Part shown: positions 12,001-63,900 of the stretch, piece by piece
Layout of the letters: each line of letters opens with the position of its first letter
Position numbering within the stretch: the first letter of the stretch is position 1
Source: Carcharhinus longimanus
Taxonomy: Eukaryota
Length of the DNA: 64,000 nt
NCBI GenBank assembly: GCA_030264375.1
Contig: JASCQW010000132.1
Span: 53,778,264-53,842,263, forward strand
Direction of reading: 5' to 3'
Position numbers: made by a program

Positions 12001-15000
12001 AAAAGATGTGTGCAAAAGTAAAGGGTGCCTTTGTTTTCCTTCTCATACAGTTAATCTCATCCTCAATATCAACCAGTAATGAAGATCCTCCATAAATACA
12101 TTGATTGGGGTGGCAACCTCCACGTCAAGCAGTTAGCTGAAGGAGTTCATTTAGCATGAAATATTTCCCCTCTACTTTGAATCAACAGTAACCTTTCAGC
12201 ATAACCAAGAGCAGTTTTGCCCAAAGATTTGCACTGTGCTATTGTAAAAATTGGTTCACTATTCTGCCATGACCAGAACTTCTTCATTTAAAGCCATGTC
12301 ATATGCTGAATTAAAGATTTATGTTTTGTAAACTCAATTTTGCTGAAATATTTTATATATTTATTAGTCAGAGATCGATGCTATTAGACTTCAATTATTT
12401 CATTACTTCTGCTGTTGTGTATTTAGTAGTGGCAGACAATATAATCCTTATGGTTATCTGTATCTTTAATTACAGTTTCTAATTTAATCTCATCCAATTT
12501 TGTGATGTTTCTACTTTCCATTTCAATGTTGGAACTGCCACTATCGTTTGATATTAATCTGCAGGTAGTAATCAGCACAGTTCAATCAATGGTGATACCT
12601 CTGTCACAACTGGCAGCCTCCTAGATGACCATCACTGGCACTCGGTGATCATTGAGCGCTATGGACGCAATATCAATTTTACACTGGACCGAGAGACGCA
12701 GCATTTCAGAACTAATGGAGAATTTGACCACTTGGATCTAGACTATGAGGTAATGGATCATTGGGTTTTGAATAAAAATAGAAAATGCTGTAAATATGCA
12801 ACATGCCAGTCAGTATCTGAAAGCAGAAAGTAAGTTGATGTAATGGGCATAAATTTTCACCAGAGGTGCACTGAACTACAAAGCATTACGAATAGCTTGA
12901 GTTAGAAATTAGATTTTTCCAACTTTTATAGTTTTTCTTAATCCTGTGACATGATATATTTTCATCCTTTAAAAAGGACTAAAATGACAGCGAATACTAA
13001 CAGACTTCCCTACAATCAAAATACTTTCTAGTTGAATTGAGGGTTCCATGCTGTTTGATACAGTTAACCAAAGTCAAACTCGGGTGGTTACAGCAATTAG
13101 ATTTCAAACAGAATGGTCAAATAATTAATTTATACATCCCAGTACCAAAGTAATGCATTGTGTCAGTGGAAAATATCATATCCTCCAATGTTAATGGTGT
13201 GGAAGATCATTAGATGTAAAGCATGATGCAGGGAATAAATTAATTTGCCTCCATGATAGTCATACATGTAAAAAAAAATTCAGTCTATTTGGAACACTTT
13301 GAGATGTTTGCGAGTCATGATGAAAGGAGAATTTAGATGCAAATTCAAATTATTTTTCAAACTAATATAAGACAAATAGGTTGAATTTTCAAAAATTTCT
13401 CCCAATCTCACAGCATAATTTCAGCAGGAAGCAGTGGAAAATCATCAAAATGGTGTAAATAACCATTTATATCACTACTCTGGGGATTCCAACAAACTTG
13501 TAGCAGTAGATGAACAGAACCCTCTCATACATCTGGCAGACTAGCACAAATGATATCCTGGTGGGTGTTTGGCATTTGAGAGGAGTTGCATTGTGTTCAT
13601 ACAGTTCATTTCCATTTTCATGGGTAGTGGAGTTGATTCTCTTAGTGGTGGGAGCTTGCTTACCATTGGCTTTTGTGCTTTTTATTTTCAGTGTTGTTAT
13701 CAGTCCTCTAAATGTACATGCACATGAATCTTCACACCCACACTTACCCATAGGGGGCAAAATGGGGCTGCAGATATTTTTAATGGGTGGGAGGGAGGGA
13801 ATGGAGGATTCAGGTCTGTAACTTTAAGGGTGTTTTACATGGGTGAGAGGGTGTGACACACTTGAAATAAGGAATAAGAAAATATAATCCTATCTACTGA
13901 AAACTATAAAAGTCCCGACATAGTTTATACACTTTGTGCTGTGTCATATGTATATGGGCACATTATTGACAACACTTCGGCTTTGCTGAACTTAGCAATA
14001 AATTGTGCATGTTGACTTTTGGCATTTTCATTATATTTACCAATCGAGTGAAACTTGGGTAAGGAAGTGGTTGAATTATTTAAAAAGGGAGGAAGTTATT
14101 GCAAACTCCTGTAATGCTTATCATTTGTTAGTACCTGGGAAATGTTGGGCCTGCCGTTTTTAACCCTTATATAGTGGACAAAGGATTGCGAGTTGACTTG
14201 TTAGTACAGTAATATTTATTCACACATACAATTGATATGAATCACCCACACAATCAATACTAAATTATTTATAGAATACTAAAGTTCAAGTTCAATACTA
14301 GGTCTTGACTTCACTTTTGCGTGACTGGCAAGTACCCTGGCAGATATTGGTCTTTATAAACATGTTGGTCTCTGCAGTCCTATGCATAGTCTGCTCCTTC
14401 AGTCTGGTCTGATACTCTGGGTCTGGTCTTCCTTCTGTCATTGGTGTGGTGGTTCTCCTTCTGCTAGTTATTGCTGGTGTGGTCATTTGTAGGAGAGAGG
14501 GATTCTTCCGTTGTGCTGCACCTTTTATCCCTCATTGGTTTTGCGCTCTTTTGGGTGGTCTCTTGAGTATCACGAATCAGTAGATGAGGGCTTGATCACC
14601 CTCATTGATAAAGTCCAATCAATCTCTGGGTGTGCACCCAACGGCCATGCCTGTAGGTGCTGGAAGTACGTTGGTCACATATCTCCCTCCCAAATAAGGT
14701 TAAGGTGCCCCTGTGTCTGGTAAACAATTCTGTTTAATCAGAAAGTGTCCATTGTCTTTGACATAGCCTATATCCTGTGTATTTGGTCATCTGAGCTGTT
14801 TTATCTCTGCCCTTTAAGCTACAGCCTGTGGCCCGTTTGGCCATAGAAGGGAAAGAATCCAACTGAACGCATCACATTACACTCATCACACCACCCATAT
14901 GTTCCCATCAATTCTTCGAATTTTAAAATGACTCACTAAAATAATTGATAATATTGTTATAATCCAACCATATCAGCAATAATAATACAATAATATTAAG

Positions 15001-60900: not shown

Positions 60901-63900
60901 AGACTTGAAGTAAAACAGAGATTTGCCTGTTGATATACTGCAATGTATGAATGGGTCCATACCATGAGGCTGTACTCCTCCTTGGGTGCCAGGTGTTTGT
61001 GACTGAGATGGCGAGCAGCTTGCAGCACTCTACTGATCCCCTCCATGTGACAGGTCAGGCTAAAGCAGTCGTGTGCCAAAATGAGCAGTTCTACAGCTTT
61101 AGAGTCCATGAAAAGAGAAGGCAGACAAAAAGTCAAACACCAGCGATCTTACATCATTAAAAAGAACAAAAGAACTTCCAATTCATACAGCATCTTTAGT
61201 AACTTCATTACTTCCCAAAGTATTTTACAACTAATGATGAATTTGAGTGTTGAGCCACTAATTACAGCAGTCAATTGGTGCACAGCAAGATCCCAAAACA
61301 GCATCAAATAACCAAATCATCTGTTTTTAGATGTTGGTAGAGTAGATAGGTTTTGGTCAGGTATGGCACCAAAAGAACATCTGCTCTTCAAATGATGCCA
61401 AGGGGTCTTTTGCATCCACCCAAACTGGATAGAAGGGGCTTTGATCTGGCATCAGAATTTGAAATATTGAGCCTCTAATCCTGCAACATTTCCTCAGTAA
61501 TCTGTGCTCAGTATCAGCTCAGATGATACATTCAAATCTCTGGATTGGGGCTCGAGTCCGGAACCTCCTGATTCAGGGGCAAGAATGATGTCACTAAGCT
61601 GGGATTGAAGGCATTCTCCCAGGATCCTGCAGTCAAGGCTAAACCACCCAGCCTATTATTAATAACAGAGGCAAGAGAATCAACCGCGCCTATCAGACAC
61701 AAGCTCACCCTCTTGGCATTCACACAGTATTCAATAAGAAATCTCAAAAATGGATAATGAAGTAGGGGGAATATGAGGAAGGCTGTGAGGAAAGGATAAG
61801 AGTATGAGATTACTCAATTACTTTCAAAGAGCTGGCCCAGGCATGAAGGTCATTCAATGACACAGAGATTCACTCTGATTTTTACTGGTAGAGGCTGTGG
61901 ACAGAGAGGCCAGTTAAAACCTCTCCCCTGATTTTGGTAAAAATACTATCCCAAGCCAATGGAGCCTCAGTGCCCAGTTGGATGTCAACCCAGTATTTAT
62001 AAACTGTATTCTTGACTCCACTCCCCGGGGCCAACTGGATCAGGATCAGGAAATTCCATCTGGGAGGCAGGAATGCTGCCAATAAACCAAAGGCTCACTC
62101 CTGACCTAAAGGGTGTGGGGAATGAGAACAGCAGCTAATTTAGAGCCAGTGCCTTAATTCAGCTCAAGTCACAGTTCTTTTGGGCAGAATCAATGTTTCT
62201 GAGCAATCTGGAGAGCTGGGAATTGGCGATCTTTGGAAAATTAAAGTCAGAATTATGAAGAAGGCAGGCATTTCTCTTTAAACACAAAAGGTTAATGTAT
62301 ACCAAGTCATTTTATTGCACAGGATACTGGCTATAATGTAAAATTTCCAGGTACTTACTGCACTCCAACTCCCCATTTGGAATGGATGAAATTTTATCCA
62401 ATAGCTTGGTACCAACGAGGATTGGGTCTTGGCACAGTTTAGCCAGTTGTAGGAAGGCCTCTTTACCATTGAGGAGATTATAAATCTGCCTCACTCCTGT
62501 GTACAAGTACAACGAGTAGAACAACAACCATTACTAAGGTGAACTACATCTTTTTGACAAATACTTGTTTTAGTTAAGGTGACATTTCCAGGAACAAAAT
62601 CTCTTTTCTGAAACAGGGCAGGTTATATTGCCACCTCTTGACTGCTTCAATCTGAATCCACACCAGATTCTAGCTGAAGGCTTTCTACTTCGCTGACTGA
62701 AAAAGCCAAAAGTTAAATGAAACTGGGCAAGTCACCAGCACAAAGCTGCATTCCCAGTGCATACACCTTGCAAAATACGAAGGTTTAAGCTCCTGTGGAC
62801 TCAAAGGGCTCCTTGATAGAGATTAAAGAAATTCTCTGAACAAACTGCTTTGTGTAAAGAAATTTTGTTGTTTGTAATTAAGCAGTGATACAATTTACAA
62901 AAAGTGTTTAGTTAATGTACATGAAAGTAACGAGACAATCTATGATCAACTGGCGCCTGCAGTTTTAATTAGACTGGATGTGAGCTGAGAGGGAGGGGTG
63001 GGAGAGGGCAACATAGTCAAATGTGCCCTCCCTTAGACATGAATCAAAGCTTTGGCTGGATGTTAAAGATCCCATGACACTTATCAGAAAGGCATAGAAA
63101 GCATCAAGAAGGTAAAGGGACATTGGTTTCAGGTATTGTTTACGGACATTTACTGTGTAGTTCTACGTAATGACAGTGACTGTATTTTAAAACTCAATAG
63201 TTGTGAAACACAGATTTCCTTAAGTGTTGGTGACTATTATAAAATAGTTGCTAATAAAGTTCCAAATGATTTTGCTCATCAAGGTGTGAGATACTAAGAA
63301 CTAACCCTCTTCATAAAACATATAGTGATATCCTCATTGCTATCTCTAAAAATTTTAAACTGGACAAATACCTAAAACAGTTGAATCAATGTCTGTCTGA
63401 GATCATGAACAAAAAAGCTACCTAACTTTATTGGGAAAACTTGCACTTCATTACACTTGAAGTGACACTAACAGTCCACATGATAAAAGCAAATTACTGT
63501 GGATACTGGAATCTGAAACCAAAAGAAAAAATACTGGAAAATCTTAGCAGGTCTGGCAGCATCTGTAAGGAGAGAAAAGAGCTGATATTTCGCGTCCAGA
63601 TGACCCTTTGTCAAAGCTAAAAGGTGTAGAAAGTGGGAGATATGTATTTTGTTGGGTGAGGGAATGAAAGATGAGTCATGGCCATAGAAACCAGGGGAAA
63701 AGGCTGCTAATAGCTGTCCATAGAGAGAATAAAGGGTGTGAATGGCCAAATGACAGAGAAGCTGCAGGCTGTGACAGATGACGATGTTGGTGTGGGAGGG
63801 GGGTGGAAAAGATGGGAAAGAGATAGAATGTAGAAAAGGGAAAGCAGGAGGCAGGAGAAAAGGTTAGGGAAGGGGGATGAAGTCAGGGAGAAGAAAAATG

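What the first reader, a model, noticed from the sequence alone, without database searches (positions are those of the whole stretch)
12565..62496. Intact exon blocks of three unrelated genes (CNTNAP2, DNAH12-like, SPG11) within 50 kb, with expected neighbouring exons missing
Seen: three phase-consistent exon runs with canonical splice sites and no stops. By eye I could not find the dynein exons before LKDIP or after TFKQG, the SPG11 exons after SQPW (which would lie at lower coordinates), or the next CNTNAP2 exon. Known: these are large multi-exon genes on different human chromosomes (7q35, 3p14, 15q21). Inference: most likely a mis-scaffolded or concatenated region. Candidate joins are the repeat-flanked gaps at 29517, 31615, 43137, 44663 and 59424. 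The more interesting alternative is a real rearrangement or an orphan dynein exon pair inside a CNTNAP2 intron.
[Added by the scan's program, not by the reader: the finding's places include an assembly gap (unread letters, written N; its length is only estimated) at 19371 to 19470, 23142 to 23241, 29517 to 29616, 31615 to 31714, 43137 to 43236, 44663 to 45496. Whether the letters on both sides are continuous or in frame is not known: test that first.]
Basis: partly seen in the sequence, partly recalled or inferred. Interest (0 to 1): 0.65.

Follow-up and report, generated by a model that had tools for sequence, protein, structure and literature searches.

The report
Three gene fragments joined by assembly
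Nine intact exons from three unrelated shark-like genes sit side by side, most likely because small repeat-ended contigs were strung together across gaps and not because the genes are real neighbours.

Summary
Nine exons with AG/GT splice sites and matching phases form three runs:
- three Laminin-G exons on the + strand, CNTNAP2-like;
- two dynein exons on the + strand, matching human DNAH12 residues about 2872-2992 of 3960;
- four exons on the - strand, matching human spatacsin (SPG11) residues 2068-2251 of 2443.

A six-frame Pfam scan of 957 of the 963 ORFs of 35 aa or more found no further exon of any of the three genes. Five others were scanned; one held N.

Each run lies in its own gap-free contig(s), and every contig end lies in or next to interspersed repeats. 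Four gaps have internal support for the join: 7945, 19371, 23142 and 29517. The 100-N gaps at 31615, 43137, 52800 and 59424 have none, and at least one of them separates each pair of gene blocks.

DNAH12 would need 55 or more upstream exons on the same strand as the CNTNAP2-like exons, which an intact-gene arrangement cannot accommodate. SPG11's local introns are 0.15-1.3 kb, yet none of its remaining exons appears in the 16 kb beyond gap 59424.

Best reading: ordinary gene fragments put side by side by scaffolding or concatenation (about 0.8). This window cannot prove it; spanning reads or related genomes are needed.

The window is not human. Exons were searched one by one and never joined.

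The parts
12565..12749 (+). Laminin-G exon 1 (CNTNAP2-like), 185 nt, phase 1 in / 0 out
   Evidence: Pfam Laminin_G_2 profile positions 39-91 of 126, E=2.2e-7. Atlas first hit is the cluster 'Contactin-associated protein-like 2 (Fragment)', 0.99. Splice sites.
15341..15478 (+). Laminin-G exon 2, 138 nt, phase 0/0 (end of the first LamG domain)
   Evidence: Pfam Laminin_G_2 positions 89-125 of 126, E=2.8e-4, 21.8 bits, just below the curated cut-off of 22.9. Splice sites.
22486..22750 (+). Laminin-G exon 3, 265 nt, phase 0/1 (start of the next LamG domain)
   Evidence: Pfam Laminin_G_2 positions 1-46, E=4.9e-4, 21.0 bits, just below the curated cut-off of 22.9. Only weak neurexin-1 matches in the PDB, 35 bits. 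Atlas gives generic LamG clusters, 0.94. Splice sites.
39870..40015 (+). DNAH12 exon a, 146 nt, phase 0/2
   Evidence: The enclosing ORF aligns to human DNAH12 (8j07_g1) residues 2868-2920, E=3.8e-19; the exon itself covers about 2872-2920; DNAH12 chains rank first. Pfam AAA_9 positions 1-27.
42442..42656 (+). DNAH12 exon b, 215 nt, phase 2/1
   Evidence: Matches human DNAH12 residues 2921-2992 of 3960, E=1.9e-38, 63 of 72 identical (counted by eye on the alignment). Pfam AAA_9 positions 28-111 of 222, E=8.2e-29.
62359..62496 (-). SPG11 exon a, 138 nt, phase 1/1
   Evidence: Matches human spatacsin (8yad_B) from residue 2068, E=7.1e-13. No Pfam hit.
60963..61096 (-). SPG11 exon b, 134 nt, phase 1/0
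   Evidence: Matches spatacsin from residue 2115, E=3.1e-15. Spatacsin_C positions 27-87.
60702..60809 (-). SPG11 exon c, 108 nt, phase 0/0
   Evidence: Matches spatacsin 2159-2197, E=2.1e-11. Spatacsin_C positions 67-107.
59968..60136 (-). SPG11 exon d, 169 nt, phase 0/1. The donor could also be at 59964.
   Evidence: Matches spatacsin 2196-2252 of 2443, E=1.2e-28. Spatacsin_C positions 106-162 of 296.
19371..19470 (.). 100-N gap inside the LamG-2 to LamG-3 intron; the join is supported
   Evidence: Consecutive LamG exons, same strand, matching phase, on the two sides.
23142..23241 (.). 100-N gap whose flanks overlap; the join is supported
   Evidence: 50 nt are identical on both sides and abut the gap; these are the only 2 copies in the window. 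An uninterrupted related repeat at 39507-39683 spans both flanks.
29517..29616 (.). 100-N gap with a short flank overlap; the join is probably sound
   Evidence: The 15-mer at 29502-29516 recurs at 29624-29638; these are the only 2 matches, against 0.21 expected by chance.
31615..31714 (.). 100-N gap; the only join without internal support between the CNTNAP2-like block and the DNAH12 block
   Evidence: No overlap between the flanks. The right contig starts inside a SINE, at almost the same SINE position as the contig that starts at 45497.
43137..43236 (.). 100-N gap 480 nt after DNAH12 exon b; candidate false join
   Evidence: No flank overlap. The right flank belongs to the same repeat family as 52900-52975 and, inverted, 19225-19312.
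44663..45496 (.). 834-N gap between two halves of one SINE family unit; uninformative
   Evidence: The flanks are colinear with the full SINE copies 28517-28843 and 32516-32835, about 50 positions apart in those copies. A tRNA-like head lies at 45549-45639 on the - strand.
48950..48959 (.). 10-N gap; the join is neither supported nor contradicted
   Evidence: Inverted repeat arms 48804-48860 and 49020-49076 lie on the two sides of it.
52800..52899 (.).
   Evidence: No flank overlap. The right contig starts in the same repeat as the contig that starts at 43237 (95% over 76 nt).
59424..59523 (.). 100-N gap about 440 nt beyond SPG11 exon d; the strongest candidate for the DNAH12/SPG11 break
   Evidence: No flank overlap. 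None of the 125 - strand ORFs in 43237-59423 hits Spatacsin_C, although local SPG11 introns are only 0.15-1.3 kb.

Best explanation
The window is a chain of small contigs (1.4-11.4 kb) from a short-read-style draft assembly of an elasmobranch-like genome. The contigs break in or next to interspersed repeats and are joined by placeholder gaps. Three of the pieces carry normal internal fragments of three ordinary genes that are unlinked in the genome: a CNTNAP2-like gene, DNAH12 and SPG11.

Their nearness was produced by the assembly. Either a scaffolder made false joins through high-copy repeats, or small unplaced or redundant pieces were inserted or concatenated with 100-N spacers.

The likely units are:
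- 1-31614, the CNTNAP2-like locus;
- 31715-43136, possibly extending further, the DNAH12 locus;
- 59524 to the window end, the SPG11 locus.

The breaks would then lie at 31615 and at one or more of 43137, 52800 and 59424.

Shown: the exons, their gene families, their intact splicing signals, the absence of further exons, the repeat-bound contig ends, and which gaps have internal support. Inferred: that the unsupported joins are false.
For: 1. Each exon run sits wholly within gap-free sequence, and every change from one gene to the next crosses at least one gap.

2. The four gaps that can be tested from the window look sound. At 7945 a 122-aa ORF reads through the 3 N. At 19371 consecutive exons in phase lie on either side. 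At 23142 there is a 50-nt exact overlap. At 29517 there is a 15-mer overlap. The gaps with no internal support are 31615, 43137, 52800 and 59424 (44663 and 48950 are uninformative). At least one of these lies between each pair of gene blocks.

3. Most contig ends fall in repeats that recur in the window, and different contigs begin at nearly the same position of the same repeat: 31715 and 45497 in the SINE, 43237 and 52900 in another family. Links across these gaps therefore rest entirely on outside pairing data, which repeats can mislead.

4. An arrangement of intact genes does not fit. DNAH12 residues 1 to about 2871 would have to lie upstream on the + strand, and the remaining CNTNAP2-like exons downstream on the same strand. 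Yet none of the 274 + strand ORFs in 23242-59423 hits any dynein or LamG family apart from the two known dynein exons. No extra exon turned up on either strand anywhere in the window.

5. SPG11's local introns are 0.15-1.3 kb. Spatacsin_C positions 163-296 are nevertheless absent from the 16 kb below gap 59424.

6. The exons are well conserved against human: DNAH12 63 of 72 and 37 of 49 identical; SPG11 26 of 45, 32 of 44, 25 of 36 and 48 of 56 (counted by eye on the alignments). They have no stops. This fits pieces of working genes better than decaying orphan copies.

7. Fixed 100-N gaps carry no size information in at least two scaffolders. One paper says 'HiRise arbitrarily sizes gaps to 100 Ns' (PMC5982815, passage seen). 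[quoted passage not shown]

8. The three human orthologues lie on different chromosomes.
Against: No join was shown to be false; nothing in the window can show that.

Three of the seven 100-N gaps (19371, 23142, 29517) look like sound joins. So the process that wrote the 100-N gaps used real linkage information in at least those cases, which raises the prior that the other four are sound too.

Gene order in this lineage is unknown to me and could not be looked up.

The CNTNAP2 call rests on one feature-based Atlas hit.

Missing neighbour exons are also compatible with long introns: there are 8.1 kb before DNAH12 exon a and 8.9 kb after LamG exon 3.
Confidence: 0.78

Rival explanations
1. The juxtaposition is real and consists of duplicated gene segments. 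DNA-level copies of a DNAH12 piece and an SPG11 piece, introns included, landed inside a large CNTNAP2-like intron. This would resemble the mosaic segmental duplications of primate pericentromeres. The full parent genes would lie elsewhere.
For: The blocks carry introns and intact splice sites, so they are DNA-level copies and not retrocopies. Only internal gene fragments are present. Several 100-N joins look sound. Short direct repeats bracket each dynein exon; their meaning is unknown.
Against: Non-functional copies should decay, yet all 9 exons keep open frames and AG/GT sites. Conservation against human is high, for example 63 of 72 for DNAH12 exon b. Two independent, very recent insertions 17 kb apart would be needed. 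Every supposed segment boundary is hidden in a gap, not in readable sequence. No duplication junction was seen.
Confidence: 0.08
2. The three genes really share one chromosomal neighbourhood in this lineage. The scaffold is sparse or locally scrambled: most exon-bearing contigs were left unplaced, small contigs were mis-ordered, and the arbitrary 100-N gaps hide very large distances.
For: 100-N gaps carry no size information (PMC5982815 passage). Contigs here are small and repeat-ended. Some joins are clearly informed by real linkage.
Against: More than 70 exon-bearing contigs would have to be missing between LamG exon 3 and DNAH12 exon a, while the exon-free contigs 23242-31614 were placed. 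It would also need synteny among genes that sit on three different human chromosomes (recalled, not tested).
Confidence: 0.08
3. The dynein pair is an orphan exon pair taken up as new exons of, or a nested gene inside, the CNTNAP2-like gene.
For: Same strand as the LamG exons, with canonical splice sites.
Against: The phases do not fit. LamG exon 3 ends in phase 1 and dynein exon a begins in phase 0, so direct splicing would shift the frame. An AAA5 fragment of a dynein motor has no evident role in a secreted or membrane LamG protein (inference). The SPG11 block would stay unexplained.
Confidence: 0.02

Closest known systems
Scaffolding misjoins of the 'translocation' or 'relocation' type in draft assemblies (GAGE classes as described in PMC3846640, passages seen)
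   Same: Small contigs are broken at high-copy repeats and joined by placeholder N runs. Unrelated loci become neighbours, and each locus looks normal within its own contig.
   Different: The misjoin is not demonstrated here. Three of the seven 100-N joins in this window look sound.
Deliberate concatenation of unplaced scaffolds with fixed N spacers (practice recalled from my own knowledge, not from a call)
   Same: Fixed 100-N spacers separate pieces of about 10-30 kb that have no biological relation to one another.
   Different: Some 100-N gaps here lie within a single locus (19371, 23142, 29517). So at least two kinds of 100-N gap would have to coexist.
Mosaic segmental duplications that place exon-intron pieces of different genes side by side (recalled)
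   Same: Internal exon blocks, with their introns, from genes on different chromosomes lie within tens of kb of each other.
   Different: No duplication junction is readable. The exons show no decay. Copy number could not be measured.
Ordinary vertebrate DNAH12, SPG11 and CNTNAP2 genes
   Same: Exon content is colinear with the human proteins or Pfam profiles, with canonical splicing.
   Different: Only about 3% of DNAH12 (121 of 3960 residues) and about 7.5% of spatacsin (184 of 2443) are present, plus one and a half LamG domains.

Membership tests
DNAH12 (axonemal inner-arm dynein heavy chain 12) | Best match is to DNAH12, ahead of the other dynein heavy-chain paralogues | tested here: met
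   Exon b: DNAH12 134 and 133 bits, DNAH7 120 and 115, DNAH3-type 97-103, DNAH1 96-100. Exon a: DNAH12 77 and 71 bits, DNAH3-type 70 and 68, DNAH7 61 and 58. The margin for exon a is small.
DNAH12 (axonemal inner-arm dynein heavy chain 12) | Dynein motor AAA5 region (Pfam AAA_9), colinear across consecutive exons | tested here: met
   AAA_9 positions 1-27, then 28-111. The ORF alignments cover human residues 2868-2920, then 2921-2992; the first exon starts at about 2872.
DNAH12 (axonemal inner-arm dynein heavy chain 12) | Rest of the roughly 3960-residue motor encoded nearby | tested here: not met
   No other dynein-family hit among the 957 ORFs of 35 aa or more scanned on both strands.
SPG11 / spatacsin | Spatacsin_C domain | tested here: met
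   Three exon ORFs hit PF14649 at positions 27-87, 67-107 and 106-162 of 296, all above the curated cut-off.
SPG11 / spatacsin | Colinear with a solved spatacsin chain | tested here: met
   Against 8yad_B the ORF alignments cover 2068-2123, 2115-2173, 2159-2197 and 2196-2252; the overlaps lie in intron read-through.
SPG11 / spatacsin | Remaining C-terminal exons (residues 2253-2443) just downstream | tested here: not met
   None of the 125 - strand ORFs in 43237-59423 hits Spatacsin_C. The contig ends about 440 nt after exon d.
CNTNAP2 (contactin-associated protein-like 2) | Two Laminin-G domains directly adjacent | tested here: met
   Laminin_G_2 positions 39-91 and 89-125, then positions 1-46 of a new domain. 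Neurexins share this feature.
CNTNAP2 (contactin-associated protein-like 2) | Closer to CNTNAP2 than to other CNTNAP paralogues or neurexins | tested here: inconclusive
   For exon 1, the Atlas's first hit is a cluster automatically named CNTNAP2 fragment (0.99, 233 of 256 features), with a Neurexin-2 cluster at 0.79. Exon 3 gives only generic LamG clusters, with a 'CNTP3' cluster at 0.81. The PDB search with exon 3 returned only neurexin-1, at 35 bits. This argues against a neurexin orthologue but does not separate the CNTNAP paralogues.
CNTNAP2 (contactin-associated protein-like 2) | N-terminal discoidin (F5/8 type C) domain upstream of the LamG pair (architecture recalled) | tested here: not met
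   No F5_F8_type_C hit among the 150 + strand ORFs in 1-21342. The upstream intron may simply be longer than 12.5 kb.
Assembly misjoin or concatenation | No read, pairing or map support across the join | not testable with these tools
   No reads, Hi-C data or other eukaryotic genomes were available. Only flank overlap could be tested.

The most novel reading that the evidence does not exclude
The scaffold is right, and an elasmobranch genome carries a young mosaic of DNA-level duplicated segments: a DNAH12 exon pair and a four-exon SPG11 block inside a large CNTNAP2-like intron. That would be a duplication hub of the kind known from primate genomes, in a lineage where none has been described to my knowledge. 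I ran no literature search on this point.
Probability: 0.07. Interest if true: 0.5.

Novelty: not a real feature. Interest (0 to 1): 0.1.

Why it matters
If this is an artefact, as I judge, its value is practical. This scaffold should not be used for synteny, gene models or rearrangement calls. Gene predictors could produce chimeric or truncated CNTNAP2, DNAH12 and SPG11 models from it.

The pattern is a cheap flag for misjoined or concatenated scaffolds elsewhere in the same assembly. The signs are internal exon blocks of unlinked genes, each confined to one repeat-ended contig, with 100-N gaps between them.

If the arrangement were real, it would point to recent inter-chromosomal segmental duplication in a cartilaginous fish.

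Tried and rejected
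- PDB search with LamG exon 3 gave only neurexin-1 at 35 bits and no CNTNAP chain, so the CNTNAP paralogue could not be settled that way.
The two ORFs were then sent separately.
- get_proteins does not accept PDB sequence ids. A local tblastn of full reference proteins against the window was therefore impossible. I used the six-frame ORF-by-ORF Pfam scan instead.
- ORF 62968-63162 (-), tried as a possible upstream SPG11 exon, had no PDB hit at E<=1.
- Rfam found nothing at gathering score, so no intron-hosted RNA could serve as a synteny marker.
- Pfam on 10 repeat-looking ORFs gave only RVT_1 at E=0.02 for 41127-41417 (-) and one weak, irrelevant hit. I therefore call these sequences repeats because they recur within the window, not because of family membership.
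- The short direct repeats that bracket each dynein exon extend no further than 54-109 nt, and no degenerate exon copy lies nearby. I dropped them as evidence for exon duplication or capture.
- Colinear SINE halves across the 834-N gap are not evidence of adjacency. Another contig (from 31715) starts at nearly the same SINE position, so contigs simply break there.
Nothing was compared with other elasmobranch or vertebrate genomes.
Paper supplements were not consulted.

Full report
**What the window is.** It has 64,000 bases at about 0.36-0.46 GC and ten N runs: 3 N at 7945, 10 N at 48950, 834 N at 44663, and seven runs of exactly 100 N at 19371, 23142, 29517, 31615, 43137, 52800 and 59424. These cut it into contigs of about 1.4-11.4 kb. 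It is rich in interspersed repeats. One is a tRNA-derived SINE with at least six copies. I do not take the window for human. Its exons are 58-88% identical to the human proteins, and its repeats are of a fish or shark kind; that last point is my own recall. I did not try to find the source assembly.

**The observation.** Stop-to-stop ORFs, Pfam and the PDB confirm three exon runs. Exon borders were set from AG/GT sites and reading phase.
- LamG run (+): 12565-12749, 15341-15478 and 22486-22750. Laminin_G_2 profile positions are 39-91 and 89-125, then 1-46 of a second domain.
- Dynein run (+): 39870-40015 and 42442-42656. These match human DNAH12 residues about 2872-2920 and 2921-2992 of 3960. 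AAA_9 positions are 1-27 and 28-111.
- SPG11 run (-): 62496-62359, 61096-60963, 60809-60702 and 60136-59968. Together they are colinear with human spatacsin residues 2068-2251 of 2443.

All nine exons have a pyrimidine-rich tract with AG, and a GT donor. Phases match within each run. E-values reach 1.9e-38 (DNAH12) and 1.2e-28 (spatacsin), so none of this is chance. I built and searched no joined model.

**Gene identity.**
- DNAH12 ranks first for both dynein exons. The margin is clear for exon b (134 bits against 120 for DNAH7) and small for exon a.
- Spatacsin is the only PDB hit for all four SPG11 exons.
- For the LamG run, the PDB search with exon 3 found only neurexin-1, at 35 bits. That is too weak for a neurexin orthologue. 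The Atlas puts exon 1 first in a cluster automatically named 'Contactin-associated protein-like 2 (Fragment)', with score 0.99 and 233 of 256 features. Exon 3 lands only in generic Laminin-G clusters.

'CNTNAP2-like' is therefore reasonable, but it is not proven at paralogue level.

**Are the neighbouring exons really missing?** I listed all stop-to-stop, N-free ORFs of 35 aa or more in six frames: 473 on + and 490 on -. Of these 963, 957 were scanned one by one against Pfam through seven alignments used only as containers. Five more had been scanned, and one was dropped because it held N.

At E<=0.01 the only host-gene hits are the 3 LamG ORFs and the 2 AAA_9 ORFs, plus the 3 Spatacsin_C ORFs. 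The other hits are:
- DDE_Tnp_4, one ORF;
- Exo_endo_phos_2, one ORF;
- ALKBH8_N, two ORFs (by my recall, this family picks up LINE-like tails);
- two weak hits that I take for chance (TRH and Epsilon_antitox).

An ORF at 62968-63162 (-), tried as an upstream SPG11 exon, found nothing in the PDB. The caveat is that exons in ORFs under 35 aa, and spatacsin parts outside Spatacsin_C, would escape this test.

**The gaps, tested first.** No gap touches an exon. Only the LamG-2 to LamG-3 intron crosses one (19371), and the exons on its two sides are consecutive, on the same strand and in phase. That join is supported.
- At 23142, the 50 nt left of the gap equal the 50 nt right of it exactly. They are the only two copies in the window. 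A related, uninterrupted repeat at 39507-39683 spans both flanks and carries the 50-mer once. The two contigs overlap, and the gap is not a real gap.
- At 29517, a 15-mer ends the left contig and recurs 8 nt into the right one. These are the only two matches, against 0.21 expected.
- At 7945, a 122-aa ORF reads through the 3 N.
- The 834-N gap at 44663 lies between two halves of one SINE family unit. The halves are about 50 positions apart in two full copies. The contig starting at 31715 begins at almost the same SINE position, so this only shows where the assembler breaks. It does not show that the flanks are neighbours.
- Likewise, the contigs starting at 43237 and 52900 begin in one and the same repeat, which also lies, inverted, at 19225-19312 just before gap 19371.
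- Gaps 31615, 43137, 52800 and 59424 have no internal support of any kind.

**Why an artefact is the best reading.** Every change of gene crosses at least one unsupported gap. Only 31615 lies between the CNTNAP2-like and DNAH12 blocks. Gaps 43137, 52800 and 59424 lie between DNAH12 and SPG11.

An arrangement of whole genes is close to impossible. DNAH12's first 2871 or so residues would have to be encoded upstream on the same strand as the LamG exons, and the rest of the LamG gene downstream. That means two large genes interleaved on one strand, and no such exons are present in the 17 kb between the blocks or anywhere else in the window.

SPG11 is compact here. Its local introns are about 1.26 kb, 0.15 kb and 0.57 kb. 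Its contig ends about 440 nt after exon d, and the 16 kb beyond the gap holds none of the remaining Spatacsin_C exons.

Within their own contigs, all three fragments look like normal, well-conserved pieces of working genes. Identities to human, counted by eye on the printed alignments, are:
- DNAH12: 63 of 72 and 37 of 49;
- spatacsin: 26 of 45, 32 of 44, 25 of 36 and 48 of 56.

Fixed 100-N gaps are placeholders in at least two scaffolders, and scaffolders do make translocation-type misjoins (PMC5982815 and PMC3846640, passages seen through, found through search 48). Whether the cause here was a false join through repeats, a misplaced small or redundant contig, or deliberate concatenation cannot be told from the window.

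**What speaks against it.** Three of the seven 100-N gaps are sound joins, so the joining process was informed and not random. No join is shown to be false. The long exon-free stretches next to the blocks (8-12 kb) are compatible with long introns.

**Rivals.**
- A real mosaic of duplicated gene segments: about 0.08.
- True but sparse or scrambled synteny: about 0.08.
- Dynein exons recruited into the LamG gene: about 0.02. The phases do not fit, with phase 1 leaving 22750 and phase 0 entering 39870.

**Verdict.** The join list should be refined: drop 29517, treat 44663 as uninformative and add 52800. The juxtaposition is most probably not a biological feature. Interest is low.

Noticed in passing
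23092-23141 and 23242-23291: The 50 nt on either side of a 100-N gap are identical. The contigs overlap, so the gap is spurious and this short stretch is written twice.
   Followed up: yes
44498-44662 and 45497-45640: An 834-N gap sits between two halves of one tRNA-derived SINE family unit. In full copies (28517-28843, 32516-32835) the halves are only about 50 positions apart. Either the size estimate is far off, or two different SINE copies were linked.
   Followed up: partly
39226-39294 / 40091-40159 and 41632-41685 / 42721-42774: Two pairs of short direct repeats (88% and 96% identical), each with only two copies in the window, each bracket one dynein exon. In both pairs the second copy starts 65-76 nt after the exon's donor site. 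No degenerate exon copy lies nearby. Unexplained.
   Followed up: partly
9976-10733: Nested inverted repeats form a palindrome-like structure of about 760 nt, possibly a foldback or MITE-like element: arms 9976-10132 / 10577-10733 (157 nt, 83%) and 10150-10234 / 10475-10559 (85 nt, 94%).
   Followed up: no
8814-9180 and 57242-57617: Two inverted copies of a repeat of about 370 nt, 81-86% alike and 48 kb apart, lie in the contigs of different gene blocks (pairs I1, I6 and I10).
   Followed up: no
31715, 45497, 43237, 52900 (contig starts) and 19225-19312: Different contigs begin at nearly the same position of the same repeat family: the SINE for 31715 and 45497, another family for 43237 and 52900. 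The assembler breaks at fixed points in high-copy repeats.
   Followed up: yes
+ strand ORFs in 40225-59423; - strand ORFs in 13-19289, 19213-40096 and 43237-64000: Transposon-type Pfam hits are scattered among the ORFs: DDE_Tnp_4 (one ORF, E=0.0031), Exo_endo_phos_2 (one, E=4.3e-4) and ALKBH8_N (two, best E=1.8e-11). RVT_1 appears only at E=0.02, for 41127-41417 (-). The scan does not name the ORF behind each of the first three hits.
   Followed up: partly
48804-49076: Inverted repeat arms 48804-48860 / 49020-49076 (88%) lie on the two sides of the 10-N gap. A second pair lies at 48840-48885 / 48903-48948.
   Followed up: no
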